A DNA stretch of 64,000 nt from Aureispira anguillae. GTDB taxonomy: Bacteria > Bacteroidota > Bacteroidia > Chitinophagales > Saprospiraceae. Both the position numbers and the translations under genes were made by a program. The notes under the pieces were generated by a model. The model searched no databases. It had not been told where the DNA came from and was given only the letters and a program-made list of their open reading frames with translations. Positions 5,926 to 53,839 of the stretch are shown piece by piece; positions within the stretch are counted from its first letter, which is position 1; each line of letters opens with the position of its first letter. The stretch lies in assembly GCF_026000115.1 (NCBI RefSeq), contig NZ_AP026867.1, positions 2,585,716 through 2,649,715 of the forward strand, written 5' to 3'.

Positions 5926-6120
5926 TCAATAATGAGCGAAAAACAGATGCAAATAAATCATGGTTGTTTCGATCTTAGCATGCTGTAGGATTGCCTTTAA
6001 AATATGAATCGGCACCTTAGCCGCCAAATCCGTTGCAAAGGTATGGCGAGCCACATGGCTTGTTACGGGCTTTAGTATCCCTGCGTCATAGGCAATCTTC
6101 TTTGATTTATGGTTTTTCAC
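5926..6120 (-). pseudogene. tyrosine recombinase (phage-integrase family) C-terminal fragment (copy B)
   Basis: 64-aa ORF with catalytic box II HVARHTFAT...LQHAKIETTMIYLHL; no N-terminal domains. Confidence 0.65.
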
Positions 6121-6770: not shown

Positions 6771-6840
6771 AACGATACTCATATTCCTTAATAATTGGAC
6801 AAAAAAGGAGTATTTAGGTAAAAAACTATTCGAACTACCC

Positions 6841-6950
6841 CTTTCCTTATCCCTGTGTCCACCCTACCCAGCGCATCATTCACCAACTTATTAAAAGGGT
6901 GCAAATAAATCATCGTTGCTTCAATCTTAGAATGCTGTAGAATCACCTAA
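6841..6950 (-). pseudogene. tyrosine recombinase 3'-end remnant (copy C), abutting first attC-like site
   Basis: gtgcaaataaatcatcgttgcttcaatcttagaatgctgtag parallels copy B; the translation ends as in copy A. Confidence 0.5.
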
Positions 6951-10327: not shown

Positions 10328-10525
10328 GCACAACAAAGTGTATATTTCCATGACAGATTTCGGGAACAATCTTACAAGAATGAACGCATGAATTACACCG
10401 CAAAATCTGCGATTTTGCCACTAGTCGTAAAACAATTTACTGGCAAAATCGCAGATTTTGCTCAGGGAACAGCTATATTTATATTCGCATGACGCCTGTC
10501 ACGGAATATACACGGGCCGTTGTCC
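10328..10525 (+). other. attC-like site (long class)
   Basis: inverse core GCACAAC 8 bp after the stop; core GTTGTCC (reverse complement GGACAAC); internal palindrome caaaatctgcgattttgcc...ggcaaaatcgcagattttg. Confidence 0.6.
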
Positions 10526-13876: not shown

Positions 13877-13947
13877 CGGTAGCCAACAAAGTGTAAAATG
13901 TTCATGCTGGCTATGTGCCAGCACGCCATTTACACGAGACCGTTACC
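13877..13947 (+). other. attC-like site (short class)
   Basis: ggtaGCCAACAAAGTGTAAaatgttcatgctggctatgtgccagc...acacgagacCGTTACCCat; internal hairpin gctggc/gccagc. Confidence 0.55.
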
Positions 13948-16945: not shown

Positions 16946-17207
16946 TAAAACGGTAGGTAACAATATGCCAATTCCATAAAGTTAAGAGCAAAAGCTGGTC
17001 TGTAATTTGCAGAAAATCTGTTTCTAAAGCTGTCACATTTCAGGCAGGAACAATTTTAGAAGGTGCATACCAAATTTGCTATCTATAGGGATAGCACATT
17101 CCTTAGCTCTAAAATCACATATTTTCTTCCGTATCAGTGTAGGCATCCCAAGAGAAGCAACCGTTAGTTAAGAGAAAAAATATTATATTAGATAAAAACT
17201 AACGAAA

Positions 17208-17501
17208 ATGAAGAGGAGTAAATTTAGCACAGCTCAAAAAGCAAAGATATTAGCAGAGCATGACGGCGGAAAAAGTGTAACGGATTTATGCCGTCAATAC
17301 CAAATTAGTGCAGCTACGTTGTATAAATGGAAAAAGGACTATGAAGATAGTCAAGATGAAGATAAACGAAGAATAAAGGAATTAGAGGCAGAAAATGTTC
17401 GTTTAAAAAAGATGTATGCTAATTTAAGTATCGATCATGAGATACTTCAAGAAGGTTATGCAATGGTAAAAAAGTTCCAAGCCCAAAAGAACAAGAAATG
17501 A
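17208..17501 (+). CDS. IS3-family transposase OrfA (HTH, leucine zipper)
   Basis: MKRSKFSTAQKAKILAEHDGGKSVTDLCRQYQISAATLYKWKK. Confidence 0.9.
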   Translation: MKRSKFSTAQKAKILAEHDGGKSVTDLCRQYQISAATLYKWKKDYEDSQDEDKRRIKELEAENVRLKKMYANLSIDHEILQEGYAMVKKFQAQKNKK

Positions 17502-18334
17502 TATTGGATTGCTTGTCAAAAGAATACAGCATTCGTCGTACTTGTGTTGTTTTGGGCTTACGCCGTCAGACATATTATAGTCGTAAATCAGGTCATCGCC
17601 CAGAAGAAAAGGATGAAGAAATAGTGGATTTACTACATCAGTTAACAAAACGTTTTGTATCATGGGGCTTTTGGAAAATTTATCACTATTTGAGAAATCA
17701 AGGCTATGCCTATAATCATAAGAGAATTTATCGTATATGGTGTATAGAGGGTTTAAATTTACGTTTACCGCCCAAACGCAAGAGGATTTATCGAAAATAT
17801 CAACAACTTTTGGCTCCTAAAGAAGTCAACAAAGGTTGGGCTATGGATTTTCTAAGTGATTGGGTTGTTAGCCCAACTAATCATCGTATACGAATTATCA
17901 ATATTATGGATGAAGGTTCTCGCCGAGCCTTATGGACAGAAGCTCATCATAATATTTCAGCTAAAAAGCTAATAGAGGTTTTGGAGAAAGTGATAGAATA
18001 TCGTGGAAAACCATCTTATATTCGTTGTGACAATGGTCCTGAGTTTATTTCAGAAAAGCTCAAATTGTGGGCAAATAAACATGATATTGAATTGAAATTC
18101 ATCCAACCAGGAAAGCCATCTCAGAATGGTTTGATTGAGCGTTTGAATAAAACATTGAGAGCCGAATGTTTGAACTTATGCTGGTTTCAATCTCTAGAAG
18201 AATTAAATGAAGAAATACAGGTTTGGAGTCAGATTTATAATCTAGAACGACCTCATAAGAACTTAGGTAATATTACCCCAGATTCTTTTGAGATTCTAAA
18301 TCAGAAACTCTACTTTTTAGCGGTTGCTGCTTAG
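17498..18334 (+). CDS. IS3-family transposase OrfB (DDE integrase core)
   Basis: rve-domain motifs WAMDF...D, CDNGPEF, KPSQNGLIERLNKTLRAE. Confidence 0.9.
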   Translation: MILDCLSKEYSIRRTCVVLGLRRQTYYSRKSGHRPEEKDEEIVDLLHQLTKRFVSWGFWKIYHYLRNQGYAYNHKRIYRIWCIEGLNLRLPPKRKRIYRKYQQLLAPKEVNKGWAMDFLSDWVVSPTNHRIRIINIMDEGSRRALWTEAHHNISAKKLIEVLEKVIEYRGKPSYIRCDNGPEFISEKLKLWANKHDIELKFIQPGKPSQNGLIERLNKTLRAECLNLCWFQSLEELNEEIQVWSQIYNLERPHKNLGNITPDSFEILNQKLYFLAVAA

Positions 18335-18560
18335 GGGAAGCCTACATCAGGCACTCGAATTCCAGTTCCATCAATCGCCAATAGTCGGTATCCTTTCCAA
18401 TATTTTATTCCTCGATTGCTTCGATAAAAAAGTTGGCAACTATAAGAAAATAAGTCTTCAAAAAAACAAACCTTAATCTTTGAACGAGCTAAGGCTAATG
18501 CTGTCTTTGTTGGTGGGCACCTTGATCTAAATAGTCTTGAGTGGGAGATTAATTCGGCGT

Positions 18561-18755
18561 TTACACTTTTTTTAAAAGACCTAATATCAATCCTACCGTT
18601 GTTGCAAAATCTAATTTGCGATGTCTTGTAAAATCTTGTTCTGGGCGAATCAAATAGGTCGCCCGTTTTTGGGCTGTTAAACTCGCCAAAATTATAAATA
18701 ATTTTAGCTTCTTTAATTGTGCTGTTAAGCTTAGTAGTTTTTTGTCACGTTTCAT
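18561..18755 (-). pseudogene. N-terminal fragment of IS4/IS5-superfamily transposase
   Basis: 64-aa ORF near-identical to 31565..31759. Confidence 0.6.
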
Positions 18756-19095
18756 CCCCTAAATATATGTTTTTTCTGACTACTTTCCTTAACTTTATGG
18801 CAGTGAACAAGAAATATACGTCAATCCCACATCTTGGGCTAAAGCTAAAGTTCATTCGTATGTAACACTACGCAAAATCGCAGATTTTGCTAGTACTCGA
18901 AGAAAAAATTACTAGCAAAATCTGCGATTTTGCTTTGGGATTAGCTATATTCCTATTCGTATAACTTGTGGCACTGCGTATATCAAGACGTTGTCATCAA
19001 TTCAAAGAAAAATCATTACGCAAATACACTGCGCAGCAACTTTTTAACTTTGAGTCTCAGTAAAAAATCTAATCTAGGACTTAAAAATAAAAACT

Positions 19096-24830: not shown

Positions 24831-25024
24831 CTTAACAAGAAATATACGTCAATCCCACATCTTGGGCTAAAGCTAAAGTTCATTCGTATGTAACACTACG
24901 CAAAATCGCAGATTTTGCTAGTACTCGAAGAAAAAATTACTAGCAAAATCTGCGATTTTGCTTTGGGATTAGCTATATTCCTATTCGTATAACTTGTGGC
25001 ACTGCGTATATCAAGACGTTATAG
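24831..25024 (+). other. attC-like site (long class)
   Basis: CTTAACAAgaaatatacg...gcaaaatcgcagattttgctagtactcgaagaaaaaattactagcaaaatctgcgattttgc...gcgtatatcaagacGTTATAG; near-identical to 18811-18996. Confidence 0.65.
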
Positions 25025-26933: not shown

Positions 26934-27131
26934 CGCCAACAATGTGTAACATATGACCATTCTAGGTGTAGGGCTAAAGCTAAAGTCTCGGCGTATGTGA
27001 GACGCCGCAAAATCGTAGATTTTGCTAGTAGCTTGAAGCCAGATTACTAGCAAAGTCTACGATTTTGCTTTGGGATTGGCTATATTCAGTACGCATAGCC
27101 TCTAGCACAGGCATATACACTAGACGTTAGG
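26934..27131 (+). other. attC-like site (long class; near-canonical cores)
   Basis: CGCCAACAATGTGTAacatatg...cgcaaaatcgtagattttgctagt...actagcaaagtctacgattttgc...gcatatacactagacGTTAGGCacaat. Confidence 0.7.
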
Positions 27132-28134: not shown

Positions 28135-28920
28135 ATGTTAAGAATAGAAAAAACTCAACTAAATATTAGTGCTTTAATCACAATGTCTTCTGGATTAAAA
28201 AAGCTTCAATCTAACACAATTACAGAAATGATGGATAAAGGAGAAAAAGCAGGACAAGTGATAATTACTAGAGAAAAAAGGGAAAATGAAAAAACAGATC
28301 TGCAATTAAGCCTAGAGTTACTAAATAAACTTTTTTTTAGTCTTGTTGGAGGTCCTCCTAGCCCACTTATTCTAAGTGGCGATGAAGAAAGATATCTCAG
28401 AAATTGTTCTTATGCTTATTACTACTATAAGACTGAAGAAGCCGAAATTTCTCCCCTAGATGTTTTTGGTGTATTTCACAAAACGCATTTCAACACACCA
28501 CCGCCAAATGAGTTACATAAAGAATTTCCAAAGATGCTTTTATCCACTTTCGGTCTAAATCCCGAATTATCTCAAGCATTCAATAAATACCAACAAACAT
28601 CACCAATTGCCTTACCCTCTCCAAAGTCTTTTAATCATGTATTTCAAACACTAAAGACTGAATTCGTCAATAATGAAATAAAATTAGTATTGGAAGCAAC
28701 CAATCTTGAAATGACGAAAAGTATAGACTCCTTATTTGCATTAAAAGATTTGTTATTTTGTTGTGAGTTTGATACAAGTTCAATTCTTGAACATCATGAA
28801 TTTTCAAAAATAAGTGGACAAAAAGACACATATAACTGGGGTGCTAAAAATGGGATAAAGCCATCTATAGAGTTTGATTACGATTACCTGAAAGTAGATG
28901 TAACAAAAAACTGTGCCTAA
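28135..28920 (+). CDS. hypothetical protein (261 aa), co-cassette with PLD-like gene
   Basis: ORF immediately followed by attC inverse core. Confidence 0.4.
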   Translation: MLRIEKTQLNISALITMSSGLKKLQSNTITEMMDKGEKAGQVIITREKRENEKTDLQLSLELLNKLFFSLVGGPPSPLILSGDEERYLRNCSYAYYYYKTEEAEISPLDVFGVFHKTHFNTPPPNELHKEFPKMLLSTFGLNPELSQAFNKYQQTSPIALPSPKSFNHVFQTLKTEFVNNEIKLVLEATNLEMTKSIDSLFALKDLLFCCEFDTSSILEHHEFSKISGQKDTYNWGAKNGIKPSIEFDYDYLKVDVTKNCA

Positions 28921-29135
28921 CAATCTGTCAATTCCATAAAGTTAAGAGCAAAAGCTGGTCTGTAATTTGCGGAAAATCTGTTTCTAAAGCTGTCACATTT
29001 CAGGCAGGAACAATTTTAGAAGGTGCATACCAAATTTGCTATCTATAGGGACAGCATATTCCTGAGCTCTAAAATTACATTTCTTTTTAGAGCTTGATTA
29101 TTAATTGTATTCCAATGCTTTATAAGCTACCTATA

Positions 29136-30105
29136 CTAAAAGGCTGGCTTGTAGTTTTTTTCTGTCATATACCGTTCATTCAATCTCATTTGCTTGCGTG
29201 TTCTTTTTGTTGGTGGTCGTATTCGGACGCTTTCATAATAGCGTTTTATTAGGTTAATCGCAGCTTTAACATATACTCCTTGATGCTCTGAAAGCAACAA
29301 ATCAAACCAATCTTTTTTCACTATAGTAATTGCTATATTTCTATTTATTTGACCCTTCAGTTTTTGTCCATTCAATTCTTTTTCTGCTACATGAATAAAC
29401 ATCGAGCGAATATTGTAAAAGATCAACACCGACCATAAATCCTGTAAAACAAATTGGGCTTTGTAACCTGAAAATACACCTAATTTTAGTTGATTTTTAA
29501 GCTCATCAAAAGCTGTTTCCTCTCCCCACCTTTTAGAATATAAATCTTTAAATTCTTCTCTGCTAAACTTATTCTTATCCAATAAATTCGTTGCTAAAAC
29601 CTCGGTTGTTCCATTCGGTAATTCTACTCGAAGTAACCTTATTTTGAAGGTTGAAAATTTTGGATGCTTATTTTTTAAGCCATACTTATCTCTTGCTGAA
29701 TAATAAGCTCTTTCACCTAACCGAAATTCTACTATGCTATCAGTATCTCCACTTTTTAAAAAATTTTCTACTGCTTTTATTCCCTTTATTTTCATTCTTA
29801 TCAAGCAGGGCTTTCTCGATTTTAAGTGGCGGTCTAATAGTAAACTATCGCAATAATGGCGATCATAGATCATGATTGAGTTGCTAGGAAGAATTTCAAA
29901 TTTTTGATGAAGGGCAACCAACTCTGCTACTGATCTTGGATGTAAATGCACATGATAGAATACTCGATTCAATACATCATGTATCGCTAATATCTTGCAG
30001 GCTGCTATTGCTCCATATTGGTTCTTGTGAACACCTATTAAGCATCTATTTTCTTCCGTATCAGGCACTCGAATTCCAATTCCATCAATCGCCAATAGTT
30101 GGTAT
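29136..30105 (-). pseudogene. IS4/IS5-superfamily DDE transposase, 5' part severed by IS3-B insertion
   Basis: the N-terminal MGYTS residues of the tracked ORF come from the IS3-B terminus; DDE_Tnp_1 YREK signature present. Confidence 0.65.
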
Positions 30106-30141
30106 TGAGGTATTGAGGTGTACCCCATTTATAGGACCAGT

Positions 30142-31050
30142 TTAAGCTGATTTTAAATTTATTAGATATTTTTCTTCCAAAATCTCCTCACAGAAATTTT
30201 GGGAGGTTTTGGAAGGGGAATATCGGTCACAAGGACGTTCATCGTCAATCCCCATGTGTCTTCTTTCCCAGTTATATTTGTTAAAATACTTTTTCATTCC
30301 TGTATGCAATGCACTTCCATCCAAATACTCTCGAATATAAGCATCTTCGTATTTCACAGACCACCATAATCGTTCAATAAACACATTATCGATACAGCGC
30401 CCTTTTCCATCCATGCTAAATTTAATTCCATAATCTTTGGTAACACATTTGACAAATTCTTTTGATGTAAATTGACTTCCTTGATCCGTATTCAAAATCT
30501 CTGGCTTCCCATATCTTTCTATCCCTTCTTCTAATGTATTTTTGCACCATAGGGCATCCATCGTATTCGATATTGACCAAGACACTACAAATCGACTATA
30601 AAGGTCAATGACAGCAGTTAAATATAGAAAACCCTTTGGCATAGGAATATAAGTAATATCCATTGCCCAGACTTGGTTAGGTCGTTCTATTTTTAAGCCT
30701 CTCAGTAGATAAGGAAAAACTTGATGGTCTTCTCCTTTTCCTGGTTTTGACGTCTGTGGTCCTGGTAAAATGGATCGCAAGCCCATTACAGAATAATACA
30801 ATCGATTAATACGCTTTCGATTCACCTTAAAACCTTTATCCGCCGTCAACCATAAATGCATGGCACGAGCTCCTTTATAGGGATGCTTTAGGTAATGTTC
30901 ATCCATTAATCGCATCAACTCCATATTTAATTCGCTCTCTTCTTTTGGTTGATAATAAATACCAGAGCGATGAATACCTATCAACTTGCATTGACGGCGA
31001 ACACTCAAAATTGGGTGATTAGAATTAATATGTTGACGTTTCTCGGACAA
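30142..31050 (-). CDS. IS3-family transposase OrfB
   Basis: rve DDE core (WAMDITYIP, TDQGSQFTS, IERLWWSVKYE). Confidence 0.9.
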   Translation of the reverse strand: MSEKRQHINSNHPILSVRRQCKLIGIHRSGIYYQPKEESELNMELMRLMDEHYLKHPYKGARAMHLWLTADKGFKVNRKRINRLYYSVMGLRSILPGPQTSKPGKGEDHQVFPYLLRGLKIERPNQVWAMDITYIPMPKGFLYLTAVIDLYSRFVVSWSISNTMDALWCKNTLEEGIERYGKPEILNTDQGSQFTSKEFVKCVTKDYGIKFSMDGKGRCIDNVFIERLWWSVKYEDAYIREYLDGSALHTGMKKYFNKYNWERRHMGIDDERPCDRYSPSKTSQNFCEEILEEKYLINLKSA

Positions 31051-31055
31051 GGGCT

Positions 31056-31334
31056 TTATTTCAACACTTTTTTTAAAAAGTCATTCTCGACTTTTAGCTT
31101 ACCTATAGTCTGTAAAAGTTTGTCTTTTTCCTTCTCCTCCTCGGTCTGCTTAGAAGTTGGTTTTTCAAATATGTCTTCTGCTCCTTCCAAAAATTGTTTC
31201 TTCCAAGTACGAATTTGTGTTGGTGCAAGCTCATATTTTTGAGCTAACTCTGATAAAGTAGATTGCTCTTTTAGAGCCTCTAATACTACTTCTGTTTTGA
31301 ACTTTGCTGTGAATTTTCTTTTCTTCATAATCAC
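31056..31334 (-). CDS. IS3-family transposase OrfA
   Basis: HTH then leucine zipper (MKKRKFTAKFKTEVVLEALKEQSTLSELAQKYELAPTQIRTWKK). Confidence 0.9.
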   Translation of the reverse strand: MIMKKRKFTAKFKTEVVLEALKEQSTLSELAQKYELAPTQIRTWKKQFLEGAEDIFEKPTSKQTEEEKEKDKLLQTIGKLKVENDFLKKVLK

Positions 31335-31564
31335 TAATTTAAGCTTTTTTTCCGAACTTAACTAGTGGTCCTATTTTTGGGGTATACCGTAGTATCCTTT
31401 CCAATATTTTATTCCTCGATTGCTTCGATAAAAAAGTTGGCAACTATAAGAAAATAAGTCTTCAAAAAAACAAACCTTAATCTTTAAACGAGCTAAGGCT
31501 AATGCTGTCTTTGTTGGTGGGCATCTTGATCTAAATAGTCTTGAGTGGGAGATTAATTCAGCGT

Positions 31565-31759
31565 TTACACTTTTTTTAAAAGACCTAATATCAATCCTAC
31601 CGTTGTTGCAAAATCTAATTTGTGATGTCTTGTAAAATCTTGTTCTGGGCGAATCAAATAGGTCGCCCGTTTTTGGGCTGTTAAACTCGCTAAAATTATA
31701 AATAATTTTAGCCTCTTTAATTGTGCTGTTAAGCTTAGTAGTTTTTTGTCACGTTTCAT
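31565..31759 (-). pseudogene. N-terminal fragment of the IS4/IS5-superfamily transposase
   Basis: MKRDKKLLSLTAQLKRLKLF...; separated from the transposase body by a stop and by the IS3-B insertion. Confidence 0.55.
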
Positions 31760-31985
31760 CCTCTAAATATATGTTTTTTCTGACTACTTTCCTTAACTTT
31801 ATGGCAGTGAACAATGTGTATGCAGCAATACTAGATTTCGGGCTAAAGCTAAATATTCGTCTTTTGCCTAGCACCGCAAAATCGCAGATTTTGCTCTAAG
31901 GAATAGCTATATTTAAGTTCGCATAGCTTCTAGTTCTGTACATACACGCACGTTAGCTCTCATTAAAAAAAAGAAAAACCCAAAT

Positions 31986-33719
31986 ATGGCAAATACAAAA
32001 ATCAAAGCCTTTTTCAACAGTCGATACTTCGAGATTCCAAAATATCAAAGAGGATACGCTTGGGAAAAGAAGAATATTAGAGAATTGTTTGAAGATATTG
32101 AAGAAGCGATAGAGGTAAAAGCAAGTCACTATATTGGAACAATTGTTCTATCAAAAACGGAAAAAGGAGAAGATGTTTTTTATGTAGTTGACGGACAACA
32201 AAGAATTACAACAACTACAATGATAATCAATGAATTGGTTAAACATTTAGATGCGGACGATTCAAGTTTTTACAAAAGATTTTATATTAATCGAGGAGAA
32301 AGATTTAGATTATTACCATTGGGAAAAGAAAAAGACTTTTTTAAAGAGTTACTAACTAATGGTGAATCTGATTTGATACCCGTAAATAGAAGCCAACGAC
32401 TTCTGATTGAAGCTTACCAAGAAATTCAAGGAAAAGTTTCGCAAATTGTTAAAGAGAAAAGCGCCTTAGATTATCTCGAACAAATAGAAAATTTGCAGAT
32501 AATGGAATTTGTTGAAGATAGCGAAGGTGATGCAATACGAATTTTTCAAACTGTCAACGATAGAGGAAAACCGTTGACAAATATGGAGAAAGCAAAAAGT
32601 CTTTTAGTATATTTTTCAAATCGGTATTTGGTAAGAAAACTTGATAAAGATATTAATGACAAGTTTGGGCAGATGTTTGAAATATATGACCAAATAAAGC
32701 ATGTAGGAACAAAAAATAGTATTGATTTGATTTCAGGGAGATACGGAGAGTTCAATGAAGACAATATAATGCGATACCATTTTGTAACTTTCAGTAATGA
32801 AGATTACGACCCAACAGCAAGTTATGTACTGGGCTTTCTAAAAAGGAAACTTAAAGAGTTCCGAAAAAGCAAAACATCAAAAGAGCAAATAGAGAACTTC
32901 ATCAACTCTTATGTGAATAGTTTACTATCATTTTTTACCTGCCTCAATAAGTTGGTTCAAAAGACGGAAATTAATGAAAAGTACTTTAAAATATTTTCGA
33001 TTTTAGGCTTATCTGCAACCTTATATCCTGTAATTGCAAAATTTGAAGAATTCGGGATTCTCGACACTTCACTTGAAGGAGAAGAACTTGAATCTTATAA
33101 TTTTCTTGATTTAATTGAATTGATTGATGTTAGAGTTTATAAGGTAAGAGGAACTGACCCCAAAGCAGATATTGGCAGGTTTTCATATCAAATAGCCAAT
33201 GAAAAATGGGATAATGCAGATATGGAAAACTGGTTAGTTTGGTTCAACGAGCGTTGGATGCCAGAAGATGAATTTAGAAATAATTTGTACAGCTCAATTT
33301 ATAAAAGAAGTCGAGCTGTATTACCACATATACTTTTAGATTATTCAGAAACTATAAGTGATACTAAATTGACTATCGAAGAATTAAAAGATTTTGTAAA
33401 GAAGAAGGCTTTTAGCATTGAGCATATTTTATCACAGAAACCGAAGTTTACTTTAAAAACACATGGGTTTAAAAGTACGGAAGAATATCTTGAATTTGAG
33501 CATACAATTGGAAACCTAACTTTGCTTGAAAAGTCATTAAATAGTAGTGTCAATAACAAAAATGTTTATGACAAGATAGATTATTATGATAGAAGTATTT
33601 TCAGAATTACCAAAGAGTTGGCAACCGAAATAACTCATAACAATCAATTCAAAAAAGAAGATATTGAAAATCGTACAGAGAAAATGGTTGAATTTCTAAT
33701 TGAAAAATGGTGGTGTTAA
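31986..33719 (+). CDS. GmrSD-like type IV restriction enzyme (DUF262 + DUF1524)
   Basis: N-terminal DUF262 hallmark YVVDGQQRITT; C-terminal DUF1524/HNH-like FSIEHILSQ ... GNLTLLEKSLNSSVNNKN. Confidence 0.7.
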   Translation: MANTKIKAFFNSRYFEIPKYQRGYAWEKKNIRELFEDIEEAIEVKASHYIGTIVLSKTEKGEDVFYVVDGQQRITTTTMIINELVKHLDADDSSFYKRFYINRGERFRLLPLGKEKDFFKELLTNGESDLIPVNRSQRLLIEAYQEIQGKVSQIVKEKSALDYLEQIENLQIMEFVEDSEGDAIRIFQTVNDRGKPLTNMEKAKSLLVYFSNRYLVRKLDKDINDKFGQMFEIYDQIKHVGTKNSIDLISGRYGEFNEDNIMRYHFVTFSNEDYDPTASYVLGFLKRKLKEFRKSKTSKEQIENFINSYVNSLLSFFTCLNKLVQKTEINEKYFKIFSILGLSATLYPVIAKFEEFGILDTSLEGEELESYNFLDLIELIDVRVYKVRGTDPKADIGRFSYQIANEKWDNADMENWLVWFNERWMPEDEFRNNLYSSIYKRSRAVLPHILLDYSETISDTKLTIEELKDFVKKKAFSIEHILSQKPKFTLKTHGFKSTEEYLEFEHTIGNLTLLEKSLNSSVNNKNVYDKIDYYDRSIFRITKELATEITHNNQFKKEDIENRTEKMVEFLIEKWWC

Positions 33720-35911: not shown

Positions 35912-36692
35912 GCCTAATAATGTGTCAATTCCATAAAGTTAAGAGTAAAAGCTGGTCTGTAATTTGCAGAAAATCTGTTTCTAAAGCTGTCACATTTCAG
36001 GCAGGAACAATTTTAGAAGGTGCATACCAAATTTGCTATCTATAGGGATAGCACATTCCTGAGCTCTAAAATCACATATTTTCTTCCGTATCAGGCACTC
36101 GAATTCCAGTTCCATCAATCGCCAATAGTTGGTATCCTTTCCAATATTTTATCCCTCGATTGCTTCGATAAAAAAGTTGGCAACTATAAGAAAATAAGTC
36201 TTCAAAAAAACAAACCTTAATCTTTGAACGAGCTAAGGATAATGCTGTCTTTGTTGGTGGGCATCTTGATCTAAACAGTCTTGAGTGGGAGATTAATTCA
36301 GCGTTTACACTTTTTTTAAAAGACCTATATCAATCCTACCGTTGTTGCAAAATCTAATTTGCGATGTCTTGTAAAATCTTGTTCTGGGCGAATCAAATAG
36401 GTCGCCCGTTTTTGGGCTGTTAAGCTTAGTAGTTTTTTGTCACGTTTCATCCTCTAAATATATGTTTTTTCTGACTACTTCCCTTAACTTTATGGCAGTG
36501 AACAATATGCATATGGTCATGGGGAGTATACAGAACCGCCTAACAGCATCCTCTGCCCCAGAAGTCACAAAATCACAGATTTTGCTAGTGCCTGAAGCTA
36601 AATTACTATCAAAATCTGCGATTTTGCTTGGGGAATAGCTATATTTAGTATCGCATATCTTGTGGCACAGGCATATACACAAACCGTTATGG
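35912..36692 (+). other. attC-like site disrupted by IS4-like deletion derivative
   Basis: GCCTAATAA at 35912-35920; remainder at 36506-36692 (tatgcatatgg ... caaaatcacagattttgctagt ... atcaaaatctgcgattttgc ... gcatatacacaaacCGTTATGGgcaag). Confidence 0.55.
35921..36505 (-). mobile_element. IS4/IS5-superfamily element, internal-deletion derivative (585 bp)
   Basis: same two ends as the full copy; junction ...ttcttccgtatcag|gcactcgaattcc joins the left end to the transposase 5' region. Confidence 0.6.
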
Positions 36693-45186: not shown

Positions 45187-45825
45187 AAACGGCCTCTCTG
45201 ATTTAAATCTTTATGGAAAAGTAAAGTCGATAAAGGAAATCACCTATCATGTAAAAGATGACTCTGGTAAAATTTATAAAGATAGGGTCTATTCTTTTTT
45301 AGAAAAAAACTATTTATCATAGGGGATTAACTAATTTTAATTAGATTGATTTTATATTTTATCTAATCAAGATACCTTTTTCTATGGATGATAACCTATT
45401 AGATTATAATGAAATGGACAAATTGGAAGACCACCTTAATATAGATGGCTACTATTTAGAAGATGTTGTAGAACTGTTGATTGAGAATAACATTGACCAT
45501 AAAGTAAGGGAAATCAGAAGATTAAACGATGATCATGATCATACTAGACTAGGCTTAAAACCTAATGACATCCAATTAGGTGATAAACGCTATGTCATTC
45601 AAGTAGCTAAAAATAAAAAACTAGAGGTTACTGATTTAGTCAAAATCAAAATTGAAGCTCTCGATAACTGTCGAGAAATTAGGAAAGCTTTTTTTCAAGA
45701 ATCAATGGACGATCAAGGCTTGATTGATGTCTTATTGTATTCTGAAGATTGGAATGATGATGACATAGTACGGTATACCCCAAAAATAGGACCACTAGTT
45801 AAGTTCGGAAAAAAAGCTTAAATTA

Positions 45826-46104
45826 GTGATTATGAAGAAAAGAAAATTCACAGCAAAGTTCAAAACAGAAGTAGTATTAGAGGCTCTAAAAGAGCAATCT
45901 ACTTTATCAGAGTTAGCTCAAAAATATGAGCTTGCACCAACACAAATTCGTACTTGGAAGAAACAATTTTTGGAAGGAGCAGAAGACATATTTGAAAAAC
46001 CAACTTCTAAGCAGACCGAGGAGGAGAAGGAAAAAGACAAACTTTTACAGACTATAGGTAAGCTAAAAGTCGAGAATGACTTTTTAAAAAAAGTGTTGAA
46101 ATAA
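45826..46104 (+). CDS. IS3-family transposase OrfA
   Basis: identical to 31056..31334. Confidence 0.9.
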   Translation: MIMKKRKFTAKFKTEVVLEALKEQSTLSELAQKYELAPTQIRTWKKQFLEGAEDIFEKPTSKQTEEEKEKDKLLQTIGKLKVENDFLKKVLK

Positions 46105-46109
46105 AGCCC

Positions 46110-47018
46110 TTGTCCGAGAAACGTCAACATATTAATTCTAATCACCCAATTTTGAGTGTTCGCCGTCAATGCAAGTTGATAGGTATTCATCGCTCTGGTA
46201 TTTATTATCAACCAAAAGAAGAGAGCGAATTAAATATGGAGTTGATGCGATTAATGGATGAACATTACCTAAAGCATCCCTATAAAGGAGCTCGTGCCAT
46301 GCATTTATGGTTGACGGCGGATAAAGGTTTTAAGGTGAATCGAAAGCGTATTAATCGATTGTATTATTCTGTAATGGGCTTGCGATCCATTTTACCAGGA
46401 CCACAGACGTCAAAACCAGGAAAAGGAGAAGACCATCAAGTTTTTCCTTATCTACTGAGAGGCTTAAAAATAGAACGACCTAACCAAGTCTGGGCAATGG
46501 ATATTACTTATATTCCTATGCCAAAGGGTTTTCTATATTTAACTGCTGTCATTGACCTTTATAGTCGATTTGTAGTGTCTTGGTCAATATCGAATACGAT
46601 GGATGCCCTATGGTGCAAAAATACATTAGAAGAAGGGATAGAAAGATATGGGAAGCCAGAGATTTTGAATACGGATCAAGGAAGTCAATTTACATCAAAA
46701 GAATTTGTCAAATGTGTTACCAAAGATTATGGAATTAAATTTAGCATGGATGGAAAAGGGCGCTGTATCGATAATGTGTTTATTGAACGATTATGGTGGT
46801 CTGTGAAATACGAAGATGCTTATATTCGAGAGTATTTGGATGGAAGTGCATTGCATACAGGAATGAAAAAGTATTTTAACAAATATAACTGGGAAAGAAG
46901 ACACATGGGGATTGACGATGAACGTCCTTGTGACCGATATTCCCCTTCCAAAACCTCCCAAAATTTCTGTGAGGAGATTTTGGAAGAAAAATATCTAATA
47001 AATTTAAAATCAGCTTAA
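46110..47018 (+). CDS. IS3-family transposase OrfB
   Basis: identical to 30142..31050. Confidence 0.9.
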   Translation: MSEKRQHINSNHPILSVRRQCKLIGIHRSGIYYQPKEESELNMELMRLMDEHYLKHPYKGARAMHLWLTADKGFKVNRKRINRLYYSVMGLRSILPGPQTSKPGKGEDHQVFPYLLRGLKIERPNQVWAMDITYIPMPKGFLYLTAVIDLYSRFVVSWSISNTMDALWCKNTLEEGIERYGKPEILNTDQGSQFTSKEFVKCVTKDYGIKFSMDGKGRCIDNVFIERLWWSVKYEDAYIREYLDGSALHTGMKKYFNKYNWERRHMGIDDERPCDRYSPSKTSQNFCEEILEEKYLINLKSA

Positions 47019-47330
47019 ACTGGTCCTATAAATGGGGTACACCTCAATAGAAATTGTCCAGCAACTATTAGCCAATAAAAATATTATACTTTCAGAAACA
47101 GAATTAGCTCAATTAAGACTTGAAAAAGGTCCTAAAAAGAAACACTCACCAGAAGATACGAGGAAATGGGCAGCCTTATTAATAATTGGTTTGCCATTGC
47201 TTTATATTTTAATAGTTTTATGGGGATAATTCTTAGAGAAAAAACAAAACAATTGGCGATCAAAATTAGCTGCGCTGATTTTTTAAATTCGGTGGGGCAA
47301 AGAGACCTCTCCATTTTTATCTAGTTAATG

Positions 47331-53374: not shown

Positions 53375-53389
53375 ACCGACGACAACAAC

Positions 53390-53704
53390 GTATCAATTTC
53401 ATCAAATTAAGAGCAAAAGCTGGGCTATAATTTGTAAAAAATCTATTTTTAAAGATATTACATTTTAGGTAGGAACACTTTTAAAAGGAGCATACTAAAT
53501 TTGCTATCTATAGGGACAGCACATTCCTTATCTCTAAAATTACATTCTTATCAAGCAAGGTTTCCTCGATTTTAAGTGGCGGTCTAATAGCAAGCTATCG
53601 CAATAAGGGCCATCATCGTTAAACTCAGTAGTTTTTTGTCACGTTTCACACTCTAAACATATGTTTTTTTTGACTATTCTTCTTAACTTTATGGCAGTGA
53701 ACAA
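53390..53704 (-). mobile_element. IS4/IS5-superfamily element, diverged deletion derivative (315 bp)
   Basis: left end atcaatttcatcaaattaagagcaaaagctggg, an internal piece matching the transposase region at 29806-29880, and right end cttaactttatggcagtgaacaa. Confidence 0.5.
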
Positions 53705-53839
53705 TCTGTATGTCTAAACTTCGTGGCATGACCAACGCTGTAAAATCATAAATTTTGTTTGGAGACAGAGCCAATTAGATTCAGTGCATGGCCTTTTGCA
53801 CAGTTTATATATCTGCAAGCAGAACAAAACGAAAATAAT

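What the first reader, a model, noticed from the sequence alone, without database searches (positions are those of the whole stretch)
28924..31814. IS4/IS5-superfamily element inserted at the same nucleotide and in the same orientation in four attC sites
A 1.6-kb element carries a DDE_Tnp_1 transposase with the YSKRWGEETAFDELK signature and ends CAATTCCATAAAGTTAAG / CTTAACTTTATGGCAGTGAACA. It occurs once in full (28924-31814) and three times as internal-deletion derivatives (16963-18810, 35921-36505, 53390-53704). In all four cases it lies immediately after the AACAA of the attC inverse core. All are in the same orientation relative to the cassettes and no clean target duplication is visible. 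Its left end (T-TGTCAATTCC) imitates the attC sequence that normally follows AACAA (TGTGTA). attC-specific targeting is known for IS1111-attC elements, which have DEDD transposases, and for group IIC-attC introns. It has not been described for a DDE_Tnp_1 element.
Basis: partly seen in the sequence, partly recalled or inferred. Interest (0 to 1): 0.75.

Follow-up and report, generated by a model that had tools for sequence, protein, structure and literature searches.

The report
attC-targeting IS4-family insertion sequence
A 1.6-kb insertion sequence with an ordinary DDE (IS4-family) transposase sits at exactly the same position and orientation in four integron attC sites of Aureispira anguillae, and its relatives do the same in marine metagenomes, so this looks like a third, mechanistically different kind of mobile element that homes to attC sites.

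Summary
Four copies of one element lie in four different attC sites of a cassette array, same orientation, same nucleotide. The window is Aureispira anguillae.

The element proper is 1,591 bp with 18-bp inverted repeats. It has a 64-aa orfA and a 380-aa DDE orfB (IS4 family, NF033592 above cut-off), joined at a conserved A7 slippery site. None of the four copies is intact. The "full" copy carries a nested IS3-family element, and so does copy 1.

Every copy reads Y-AACAA-N5-[IS]-AACAA-N5-attC.

Ten relatives (60-72% identical orfB) on metagenome contigs occupy the same site and orientation. Two of them have a perfect 10-bp duplication, AACAATGCAT. One decayed relative sits inside an ORF, so the specificity is not absolute. 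A Clostridium relative (32% identity) makes ordinary 10-bp duplications at unrelated sites.

In most copies the two N5 halves differ. The likeliest cause is later exchange, since one attC is 100% identical to another from the IS tip to GTT. Carry-over of donor bases is not excluded.

I found no published DDE element that targets attC.

The parts
28929..31809 (-). Copy c2. This is the only full-length element: 1,591 bp once the nested IS3 element, its duplication and 8 extra bp (30106-31395) are removed. IRdown tip is CAATTCC at 28929. IRup tip is CAGTG at 31809.
31565..31759 (-). orfA, 64 aa. It has no family match. It aligns with the N-terminal extension of the fused relatives P0032, P0038 and P0042.
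31570..31582 (-). Conserved CTTTTAAAAAAAG at the orfA/orfB junction. A -1 shift gives ...LLKKSVNAELI..., as in the fused relatives.
29136..31573 (-). orfB, the DDE transposase (about 380 aa in relatives), interrupted at 30106-31395. The D, D, E and Y-R-E-K residues are present.
30114..31391 (-). Nested IS3-family element (orfA 31056-31334, orfB 30142-31050). Its duplication is GTAT. An 8-bp extra TGAGGTAT lies at 30106-30113.
28919..28928 (+). c2 left 10-mer, AACAAtctgt: the R'' AAC of the interrupted attC plus N5.
31810..31957 (+). c2 right 10-mer, AACAAtgtgt, followed by the rest of the attC. It folds, and R' is GTTAGCT.
16969..18805 (-). Copy c1, an internal-deletion derivative. About 624 bp of the element remain. 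It carries a nested IS3-family element.
17138..18346 (+). Nested IS3-family element in c1 (orfA 17208-17501, orfB 17498-18334). Its duplication is tcag.
16959..16968 (+). c1 left 10-mer, AACAAtatgc.
18806..18992 (+). c1 right attC, starting AACAAgaaat. It is 100% identical to the uninterrupted attC at 24834-25020, from AACAA to the R' GTT.
35926..36500 (-). Copy c3. It has the same deletion junction as c1 plus a private 48-bp deletion.
35916..35925 (+). c3 left 10-mer, AATAAtgtgt.
36501..36688 (+). c3 right attC, starting AACAAtatgc.
53394..53699 (-). Copy c4, an old remnant with two internal deletions.
53384..53393 (+). c4 left 10-mer, AACAAcgtat.
53700..53805 (+). c4 right flank, starting AACAAtctgt. 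It is a weakly folding, apparently degenerate attC.

Best explanation
**What it is.** An insertion sequence of the IS4 family, 1.59 kb long, with 18-bp terminal inverted repeats. It has a small orfA and a DDE orfB, probably fused by a -1 frameshift on A AAA AAA G. Its transposase selects a 10-bp asymmetric target, AACAA-N5.

**Where it lands.** In these Bacteroidota cassette arrays that target is the AAC of the attC R'' box plus the spacer and first bases of L''.

**How it inserts.** A 10-bp staggered cut duplicates the target, giving R''-AACAA-N5-[IS]-AACAA-N5-rest of attC. IRup always abuts AACAA, and the transposase gene runs antisense to the cassettes.

**Consequences.**
- The AAC core is regenerated next to the IS, so the right-hand attC stays nearly whole.
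- Deletion derivatives are mobilised in trans, as the shared deletion in c1 and c3 suggests.
- The two N5 halves later come to differ, through mutation, IS-IS recombination or attC-attC conversion.

**Shown.** Family, anatomy, site, orientation, recurrence in other organisms, and the 10-bp duplication in two intact relatives.

**Inferred.** That the transposase itself reads the target rather than selection filtering random hits. Also the frameshift, the causes of the N5 mismatches, and any continued function of the attC.
For: **Family.**
- NF033592 scores 145 bits against a cut-off of 115. PF01609 gives E = 1e-16.
- D, D, E and YREK columns are invariant in 27 sequences.

**Site in the window.** Four copies have identical architecture.

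**Site in relatives.**
- L019, L023, L024, L025, L026, L027, L028, L040, L041 and L042 all have IRdown followed by N5-TTGTT, or TTGTT before IRup.
- The right flanks of L023, L027 and L028 fold as attC of 61, 59 and 130 nt. L042's right flank has complementary arms by inspection.
- L028 lies at the head of an array of further candidate attC sites.
- Neighbouring genes are small and antisense to the transposase.

**Ten-base-pair stagger.**
- Perfect AACAATGCAT duplications flank intact elements in L041 and L042.
- c2 and L027 match at 9 of 10 positions.
- The Clostridium relative has perfect 10-bp duplications in 4 of 10 copies.

**Derived specificity.**
- The Clostridium relative's flanks carry no AACAA.
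- In other phyla, 17 sites share the same 19-nt terminus, and none is followed by AACAA.

**Later exchange is real.** c1's right attC is 100% identical over 187 bp to attC 24834-25020. The identity stops at the IS tip and at the R' GTT.
Against: - Of about 12 copies with both flanks, only 2 have a perfect duplication. Two intact elements (L023, L028) differ at 3 of 5 N5 positions, which mutation alone cannot explain.
- L039 lies in an ORF, and its two flanking 10-mers differ at 4 of 10 positions.
- A degenerate sequence motif alone, YAACAAWRNRY, has 18 sites in the window, and I count 7 of them in attC (the script listed 6; a seventh, at 26938, was missed because my curated coordinate was off by 2). 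So sequence, structure and selection cannot be separated here.
- No intact copy was seen in this genome. The only proteins above 72% identity are the 330-aa fragment itself and an 84% metagenome protein. Activity is therefore unproven.
- I called the attC sites by hand and by hairpin folding, not with IntegronFinder. Only a tyrosine-recombinase remnant lies next to the array.
- The rest of the genome could not be scanned.
Confidence: 0.75

Rival explanations
1. **Donor carry-over.** The targeting is the same, but only AACAA is duplicated. The 5 nt next to IRdown are brought from the previous site. A circle or tandem junction, IRup-AACAA-N5(donor)-IRdown with a 10-bp spacer, integrates. The spacer strands remain as 5' flaps that anneal to the AACAA-N5 gaps and are ligated. 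This leaves donor N5 on one side and target N5 on the other, as with the coupling sequences of Tn916.
For: - In the window, L1 = R3 (tatgc), L3 = R2 (tgtgt) and L2 = R4 (tctgt). That gives the chain c4 to c2 to c3 to c1.
- The chain fits c2 being full length and c3 and c1 sharing one deletion.
- Head-to-tail junctions with exactly N5+TTGTT between the ends occur in L020 and L021.
- N5a differs from N5b in intact L023 and L028.
- The two perfect cases lie in attCs that share the same first 20 nt, so they do not discriminate.
Against: - The matches are weak statistically, because targeted attCs share a TNTGY-like N5. My rough estimate is p of 0.02 to 0.2, depending on the null.
- The Clostridium relative shows a similar share of mismatched duplications with no such mechanism.
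- c1's right attC needs a separate exchange event anyway.
- L023 and L024 carry the same R''+N5a combination, which suggests N5a is native to the left side.
- From memory, no DDE element is known to retain junction spacers, and IS10 and IS50 of this family do not form circles.
Confidence: 0.22
2. **Survivorship, not targeting.** The transposase needs only AACAA or a short motif and inserts widely. Insertions in genes are purged. Only those in the neutral, repeated attC sites persist.
For: - L039 lies in an ORF.
- L022, a 32% relative, is in a non-attC site with AACAA/AACAC flanks.
- Motif counts show many non-attC candidate sites.
Against: - The window has many intergenic AACAA outside attC, yet 4 of 4 copies here use the R'' AACAA, preceded by Y. 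Of the nine relatives above 60% identity with usable flanks, eight do the same.
- All are in one orientation, which selection alone does not obviously impose.
Confidence: 0.12
3. **One insertion, then spread.** The element inserted once and reached other attCs by cassette duplication, homologous recombination or integrase activity. The four copies would then not be independent events.
For: - c1 and c3 share a deletion.
- attC sequence has been exchanged between cassettes.
Against: - The left-flank cassettes are unrelated.
- c4 is far more diverged than c1 to c3.
- Relatives in other samples occupy the same site in unrelated attCs of 59 to 190 nt.
- Integrase crossover is at R' (established knowledge, from memory) and cannot move the IS away from its upstream ORF.
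Confidence: 0.04
4. **Integrase capture.** The abutted IS ends (CTTAAC...GTTAAG) act as a pseudo-attC, and the integron integrase inserts the element like a cassette.
For: The ends contain AAC and GTT triplets in a palindrome (read directly from the sequence).
Against: - Copy homology runs to the IR tips, not to the GTT 13 nt inside them.
- The insertion point is at R'', not at the R' crossover.
- The same ends occur on elements far from any attC.
- Only an integrase remnant is present.
Confidence: 0.02

Closest known systems
IS1111-attC group (ISPa21, ISPst6, ISKpn4 and others)
   Same: These are insertion sequences found at one specific position near one end of attC sites, in one orientation, in several hosts (PMC11187229, citing Tetu & Holmes 2008 and Post & Hall 2009).
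   Different: They use a DEDD transposase guided by a seekRNA. They have subterminal repeats, a circular intermediate and no classical duplication. The element here has a DDE_Tnp_1 transposase, terminal inverted repeats and a 10-bp duplication geometry. No long non-coding region is evident.
Group IIC-attC introns
   Same: They insert into attC sites in a fixed orientation (PMC3001079).
   Different: They are retroelements with a ribozyme and a reverse transcriptase. Neither is present here: there are no Rfam hits in the window, and the ORFs are transposases.
IS4 family, 10-bp-duplication relatives (IS1675; Clostridium element P0070; IS231 from memory)
   Same: They share the transposase fold and motifs, the size, the CA...AAGTTAAG-type ends and the 10-bp stagger.
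   Different: Identity is only about 32%. Those relatives insert at varied sites (the Clostridium copies). They show no AACAA requirement and no attC association. The fused relatives lack the A7 split.
IS1397 / ISKpn1 (IS3 family), which target REP/BIME palindromes (from memory, not tested)
   Same: They are DDE insertion sequences that home to a repeated imperfect palindrome in intergenic DNA.
   Different: The family, the target and the duplication length (3-4 bp) all differ.
Tn916 coupling sequences (from memory; relevant only to the carry-over reading)
   Same: Donor flank bases appear beside the new insertion.
   Different: Tn916 uses a tyrosine recombinase, not a DDE enzyme.

Membership tests
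IS4 family | DDE transposase of the DDE_Tnp_1 type that matches a curated IS4 model | tested here: met
   NF033592 scores 145 bits against a cut-off of 115. PF01609 scores 61.8 bits against a cut-off of 23.
IS4 family | Y-(2)-R-(3)-E-(6)-K motif after the third catalytic residue | tested here: met
   YSKRWGEETAFDELK is present. Y247, R250, E254 and K261 are invariant in alignment A1.
IS4 family | Terminal inverted repeats | tested here: met
   The 18-bp repeats match at 15 of 18 positions and are conserved in relatives.
IS4 family | Direct target duplication of about 8-13 bp | tested here: inconclusive
   The duplication is a perfect 10 bp in L041 and L042, 9/10 in c2 and L027, and 6-7/10 in the rest.
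IS1111-attC group (IS110/IS1111) | DEDD transposase (DEDD_Tnp_IS110 / Transposase_20) | tested here: not met
   Only PF01609 was found in the element's ORFs.
IS1111-attC group (IS110/IS1111) | Insertion at a fixed position and orientation in attC | tested here: met
   This is a shared behaviour, not membership.
Group IIC-attC intron | Group II ribozyme and a reverse-transcriptase ORF | tested here: not met
   There are no Rfam matches at gathering score in the window. There is no RT among the ORFs of the element.
Integron gene cassette array (the setting) | Co-oriented ORFs, each followed by an imperfect palindrome bounded by RYYYAAC and GTTRRRY | tested here: met
   The sites are of 60-nt and roughly 190-nt types.
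Integron gene cassette array (the setting) | Adjacent integron integrase gene | tested here: not met
   Only a 64-aa C-terminal tyrosine-recombinase fragment is present, at 5926-6120(-). It matches TIGR02249 at E = 2.7e-10, far below cut-off and no better than Xer models. The array behaves as a CALIN within this window.

The most novel reading that the evidence does not exclude
A DDE transposase that duplicates only the AACAA core and carries 5 bp of its previous attC to the next one. It would do this through a 10-bp-spacer circle or tandem junction whose spacer strands are ligated into the new site. Each copy would then record the site it came from (c4 to c2 to c3 to c1). The element would also ride inside cassettes whose attC it leaves usable.
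Probability: 0.2. Interest if true: 0.8.

Novelty: new variant of a known kind. Interest (0 to 1): 0.62.

Why it matters
attC sites are the recombination sites that make integron cassettes mobile. Only two kinds of element are known to home to them, and both use unusual machinery: an RNA-guided DEDD recombinase, and a retro-homing ribozyme.

A plain DDE transposase doing the same would be a third, independent solution. It inserts in one orientation into an asymmetric 10-bp target.

- It raises the question of how a nominally symmetric transpososome reads an asymmetric site.
- It offers a marker for cassette arrays in Bacteroidota, where integrons are little studied.
- It bears on array stability. 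Co-oriented copies invite deletions, and insertion separates R'' from the rest of the attC.
- If the carry-over reading is right, insertion order could be read directly from the flanks.

Tried and rejected
**Searches that fell short.**
- Scanning genome contigs with the right end was meant to find every copy in the genome. It returned 16 unrelated stretches in Legionella, Methylococcales and others, and none from Aureispira. The source genome is absent or masked, so no census was possible.
- Exact-protein look-ups of the 330-aa fragment found nothing.
- The look-up of the neighbouring GmrSD cassette returned only a contig that is identical to the window over the aligned 260 nt and breaks at the IS end. 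It gave no empty site.
- The metagenome scan with the alignment gave only 5 loci. The viral scans gave nothing useful.

**Methods that underperformed.**
- My own attC finder was too strict, then incomplete. The attC list is therefore partly manual.

**Ideas I dropped.**
- The transposase in c2 is not frameshift-decayed. The shift sits on a motif conserved in all relatives.
- The N5 is not part of the element, because it varies among 95-98% identical copies.
- The right AACAA-N5 is not carried with the element. It is native to the attC: it pairs with L', and c1R equals an uninterrupted attC.
- Insertion into a folded single-strand hairpin would not give the observed product.
- Integrase-mediated exchange has its crossover at R' (from memory), so it cannot separate the flanks.
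Full report
**Setting.** The window is 31% G+C. From about 10 kb onward it is a run of mostly plus-strand ORFs, each followed by an imperfect palindrome that starts ...YAAC-AA and ends GTTRRRY. These palindromes come in a 60-nt form and a roughly 190-nt form, which makes this an integron-type cassette array. The 330-aa transposase fragment is 100% identical to an "IS4 family transposase" of Aureispira anguillae, recorded on a 7.58-Mb contig. Only a 64-aa C-terminal fragment of a tyrosine recombinase lies upstream, on the opposite strand. It matches Xer and integron-integrase models about equally and far below cut-off. Within the window the array is therefore a cluster of attC sites without a working integrase.

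**The observation.** Repeat finding and blastn show exactly four copies and no other fragments. The tips are c1 16969-18805, c2 28929-31809, c3 35926-36500 and c4 53394-53699.
- c2 is long only because an IS3-family element is nested at 30114-31391. That element has a GTAT duplication and 8 extra bp. A second copy of it, at 45771-47047, interrupts a cassette ORF.
- Removing the nested element restores a 1,591-bp element, the same size as relatives at 1,588-1,601 bp.
- c1 holds a different IS3-family element at 17138-18346, with a tcag duplication.
- c1 and c3 share one internal deletion junction and six SNPs against c2. c3 has a further private 48-bp deletion. c4 is old: 86-90% identical over short blastn segments and 76-83% over the longer ungapped repeat families, with other deletions.

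**The element.** The conceptual protein passes the curated IS4 model (NF033592, 145 bits against 115) and PF01609. Alignment with 26 relatives shows invariant D, D and E residues and the Y-R-E-K motif.
- Relatives are called as a 64-aa orfA plus a 380-aa orfB.
- The junction CTTTTAAAAAAAG is identical in c1-c3 and in L018, L019, L023, L026, L027 and L039. The bases after it vary, and several copies lack any orfB start codon.
- A -1 shift there gives LLKKS..., which matches the fused proteins P0032, P0038 and P0042.
- I therefore read the "frameshift" in c2 as the normal, probably programmed, arrangement. This is an inference.
- No other close copy appears among proteins. As far as I can see, the element is dead in this genome.

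**Target architecture.** Every copy reads Y-AACAA-N5a-[CAATTCC...CAGTG]-AACAA-N5b-attC.
- N5a differs among 95-98% identical copies (tatgc, tctgt, tgtgt), so it is flank and not element.
- The right AACAA-N5b is native attC sequence. c1's right attC equals the uninterrupted attC at 24834-25020, which reads cttAACAAgaaat. In c2, L023 and L027, N5b pairs with L'.
- The inserted material is therefore the IS plus 10 bp. Five of those are a repeat of AACAA, and five look like the start of an attC.

**Relatives.** orfB homologues at 60-72% identity occur on short marine metagenome contigs.
- L019, L023, L024, L025, L026, L027, L028, L040, L041 and L042 have the same arrangement and orientation, usually behind a TAAAAAC-N7-AACAA context.
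- The right flanks of L023, L027 and L028 fold as attC of 61, 59 and 130 nt. L028 heads an array of further candidate attCs.
- L041 and L042 carry intact elements with the identical transposase in different cassettes. Both have a perfect AACAATGCAT on each side.
- L039 is decayed, and its orfB, at 84%, is the closest to the window's element. It interrupts an open reading frame rather than an attC.
- A 32% relative (L021, L022) has TTGTT/GTGTT-type flanks outside any attC.
- A Clostridium relative at 32% (P0070) makes ordinary 10-bp duplications at unrelated sites: 4 of 10 perfect, no AACAA.
- In Legionella, Methylococcales and others, 17 sites carry the same 19-nt terminus as this element, and none is followed by AACAA.
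- So the 10-bp stagger is ancestral, and the AACAA/attC preference is a derived trait of this clade.

**Chance and independence.** The window has 357 AACAA pentamers and about 16 attCs (my count). Four of four copies at R'' AACAAs gives about 4e-6. The left-flank cassettes are unrelated. Together with the metagenome loci, this excludes a single insertion that merely spread.

**The mismatched halves.** Only 2 of about 12 copies have identical 10-mers. c2 and L027 differ at one base, and the rest at 3-4 bases, including intact L023 and L028.

One explanation is exchange after insertion. c1's right attC is 100% identical over 187 bp to another attC, and the identity ends exactly at the IS tip and at the R' GTT. 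That is what conversion or recombination bounded by heterology would produce. Co-oriented copies also invite IS-IS recombination. The Clostridium relative shows a comparable share of mismatched duplications.

The other explanation is carry-over of donor bases.
- In the window, L1 = R3, L3 = R2 and L2 = R4. This orders the copies c4, c2, c3, c1, in agreement with the deletion genealogy.
- L020 and L021 contain head-to-tail ends separated by exactly N5+TTGTT.
- A circle or tandem junction whose 10-nt spacer strands anneal to the AACAA-N5 gaps and are ligated would give this pattern.
- However, the matches are not strongly significant, because the targeted N5s share a consensus.

I put carry-over at about 0.2. 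L041's attC is itself chimeric: its 5' arm equals L042's, but its 3' arm is not complementary to it. That remains unexplained.

**What reads the target.** This is open. The positions before AACAA (Y) and within N5 (W-R-N-R-Y) are biased. That motif alone has 18 sites in the window, and I count 7 of them in attC. Sequence, hairpin structure and purifying selection may all contribute. The fixed orientation argues for recognition by an asymmetric complex. The two tips differ consistently: CACTG/CATTA at IRup, next to AACAA, against CAATT at IRdown.

**Comparison and novelty.** Full-text searches returned only the IS1111-attC group and group IIC-attC introns as attC-targeting elements. One paper notes an IS4-family transposase in a Treponema cassette amplicon without comment. 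The element fails the defining features of both known groups: it has no DEDD enzyme and no ribozyme or reverse transcriptase. It is a member of the IS4 family with a new behaviour. The literature held is incomplete, and ISfinder could not be consulted.

**Verdict.** The main interpretation stands and is strengthened by independent loci. The "no duplication / mimicry" part is replaced by a 10-bp target duplication whose distal half is often not preserved.

Noticed in passing
window 31570-31582 (minus strand); also L018, L019, L023, L026, L027, L039: CTTTTAAAAAAAG is strictly conserved between the 64-aa orfA and the 380-aa orfB. Several copies have no orfB start codon. Relatives with A6 are fused in frame. 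This looks like programmed -1 frameshifting or transcriptional slippage, which from memory is not a usual feature of IS4-family elements.
   Followed up: partly
window 18806-18992 and 24834-25020: Two attC sites behind unrelated ORFs are 100% identical over 187 bp. The identity begins at AACAA and ends at the R' GTT. Other long attCs in the window are only 72-86% alike.
   Followed up: partly
window 30114-31391 (-) and 45771-47047 (+): Two copies of one IS3-family element are present. One is nested in c2 (duplication GTAT, plus an 8-bp TGAGGTAT that looks like a footprint). The other splits a cassette ORF (duplication ATAG). A different IS3-family element lies at 17138-18346 in c1.
   Followed up: partly
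window 5926-6120 (-) and 6788-6946 (-): Two short fragments encode the C-terminal end of a tyrosine recombinase (…HTFAT…LQHAKIETTMIYLH). They are 82% alike at the DNA level and lie upstream of the array on the opposite strand. They may be remains of the integron integrase.
   Followed up: partly
window attC left ends (for example 10320, 12685, 26925) and L019, L023-L028, L040, L041: A conserved TAAAAAC lies 7 nt before the R'' AACAA, so the cassette stop codon sits at a fixed distance from the attC. The same pattern appears in unrelated metagenome contigs.
   Followed up: no
window, for example 18871-18935, 24899-24963, 10399-10463, 36568-36628: The long (~190-nt) attCs contain an inner near-perfect inverted pair, GCAAAATCGCAGATTTTGC ... 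GCAAAATCTGCGATTTTGC, each half itself palindromic. The 60-nt attCs lack it.
   Followed up: no
L001-L016 (genome-contig hits): The 19-nt terminus YCTTAACTTTATGGCAGTG is conserved at the ends of short elements with REP-like hairpins in Legionella, Methylococcales, Opitutia, Prosthecobacter, Caldilineales and others. L014 holds a MITE of about 125 bp flanked by a roughly 10-bp repeat.
   Followed up: partly
L020 1714-1759; L021 4-49: Head-to-tail junctions of element ends are separated by exactly 10 bp (atacaTTGTT, gtacgTTGTT). They are either tandem copies or circle junctions.
   Followed up: partly
L041 right flank versus L042 right flank: The first 20 nt after the element are identical in both loci. 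In L041 the 3' arm of the attC is not complementary to that 5' arm. Instead it resembles the 3' arm of the window attC at 13885-13944. This is a chimeric attC of unknown origin.
   Followed up: no
window 31986-33719: The cassette directly downstream of c2 encodes a GmrSD-type (DUF262/DUF1524) protein. That fits the view of cassette arrays as stores of defence genes.
   Followed up: no
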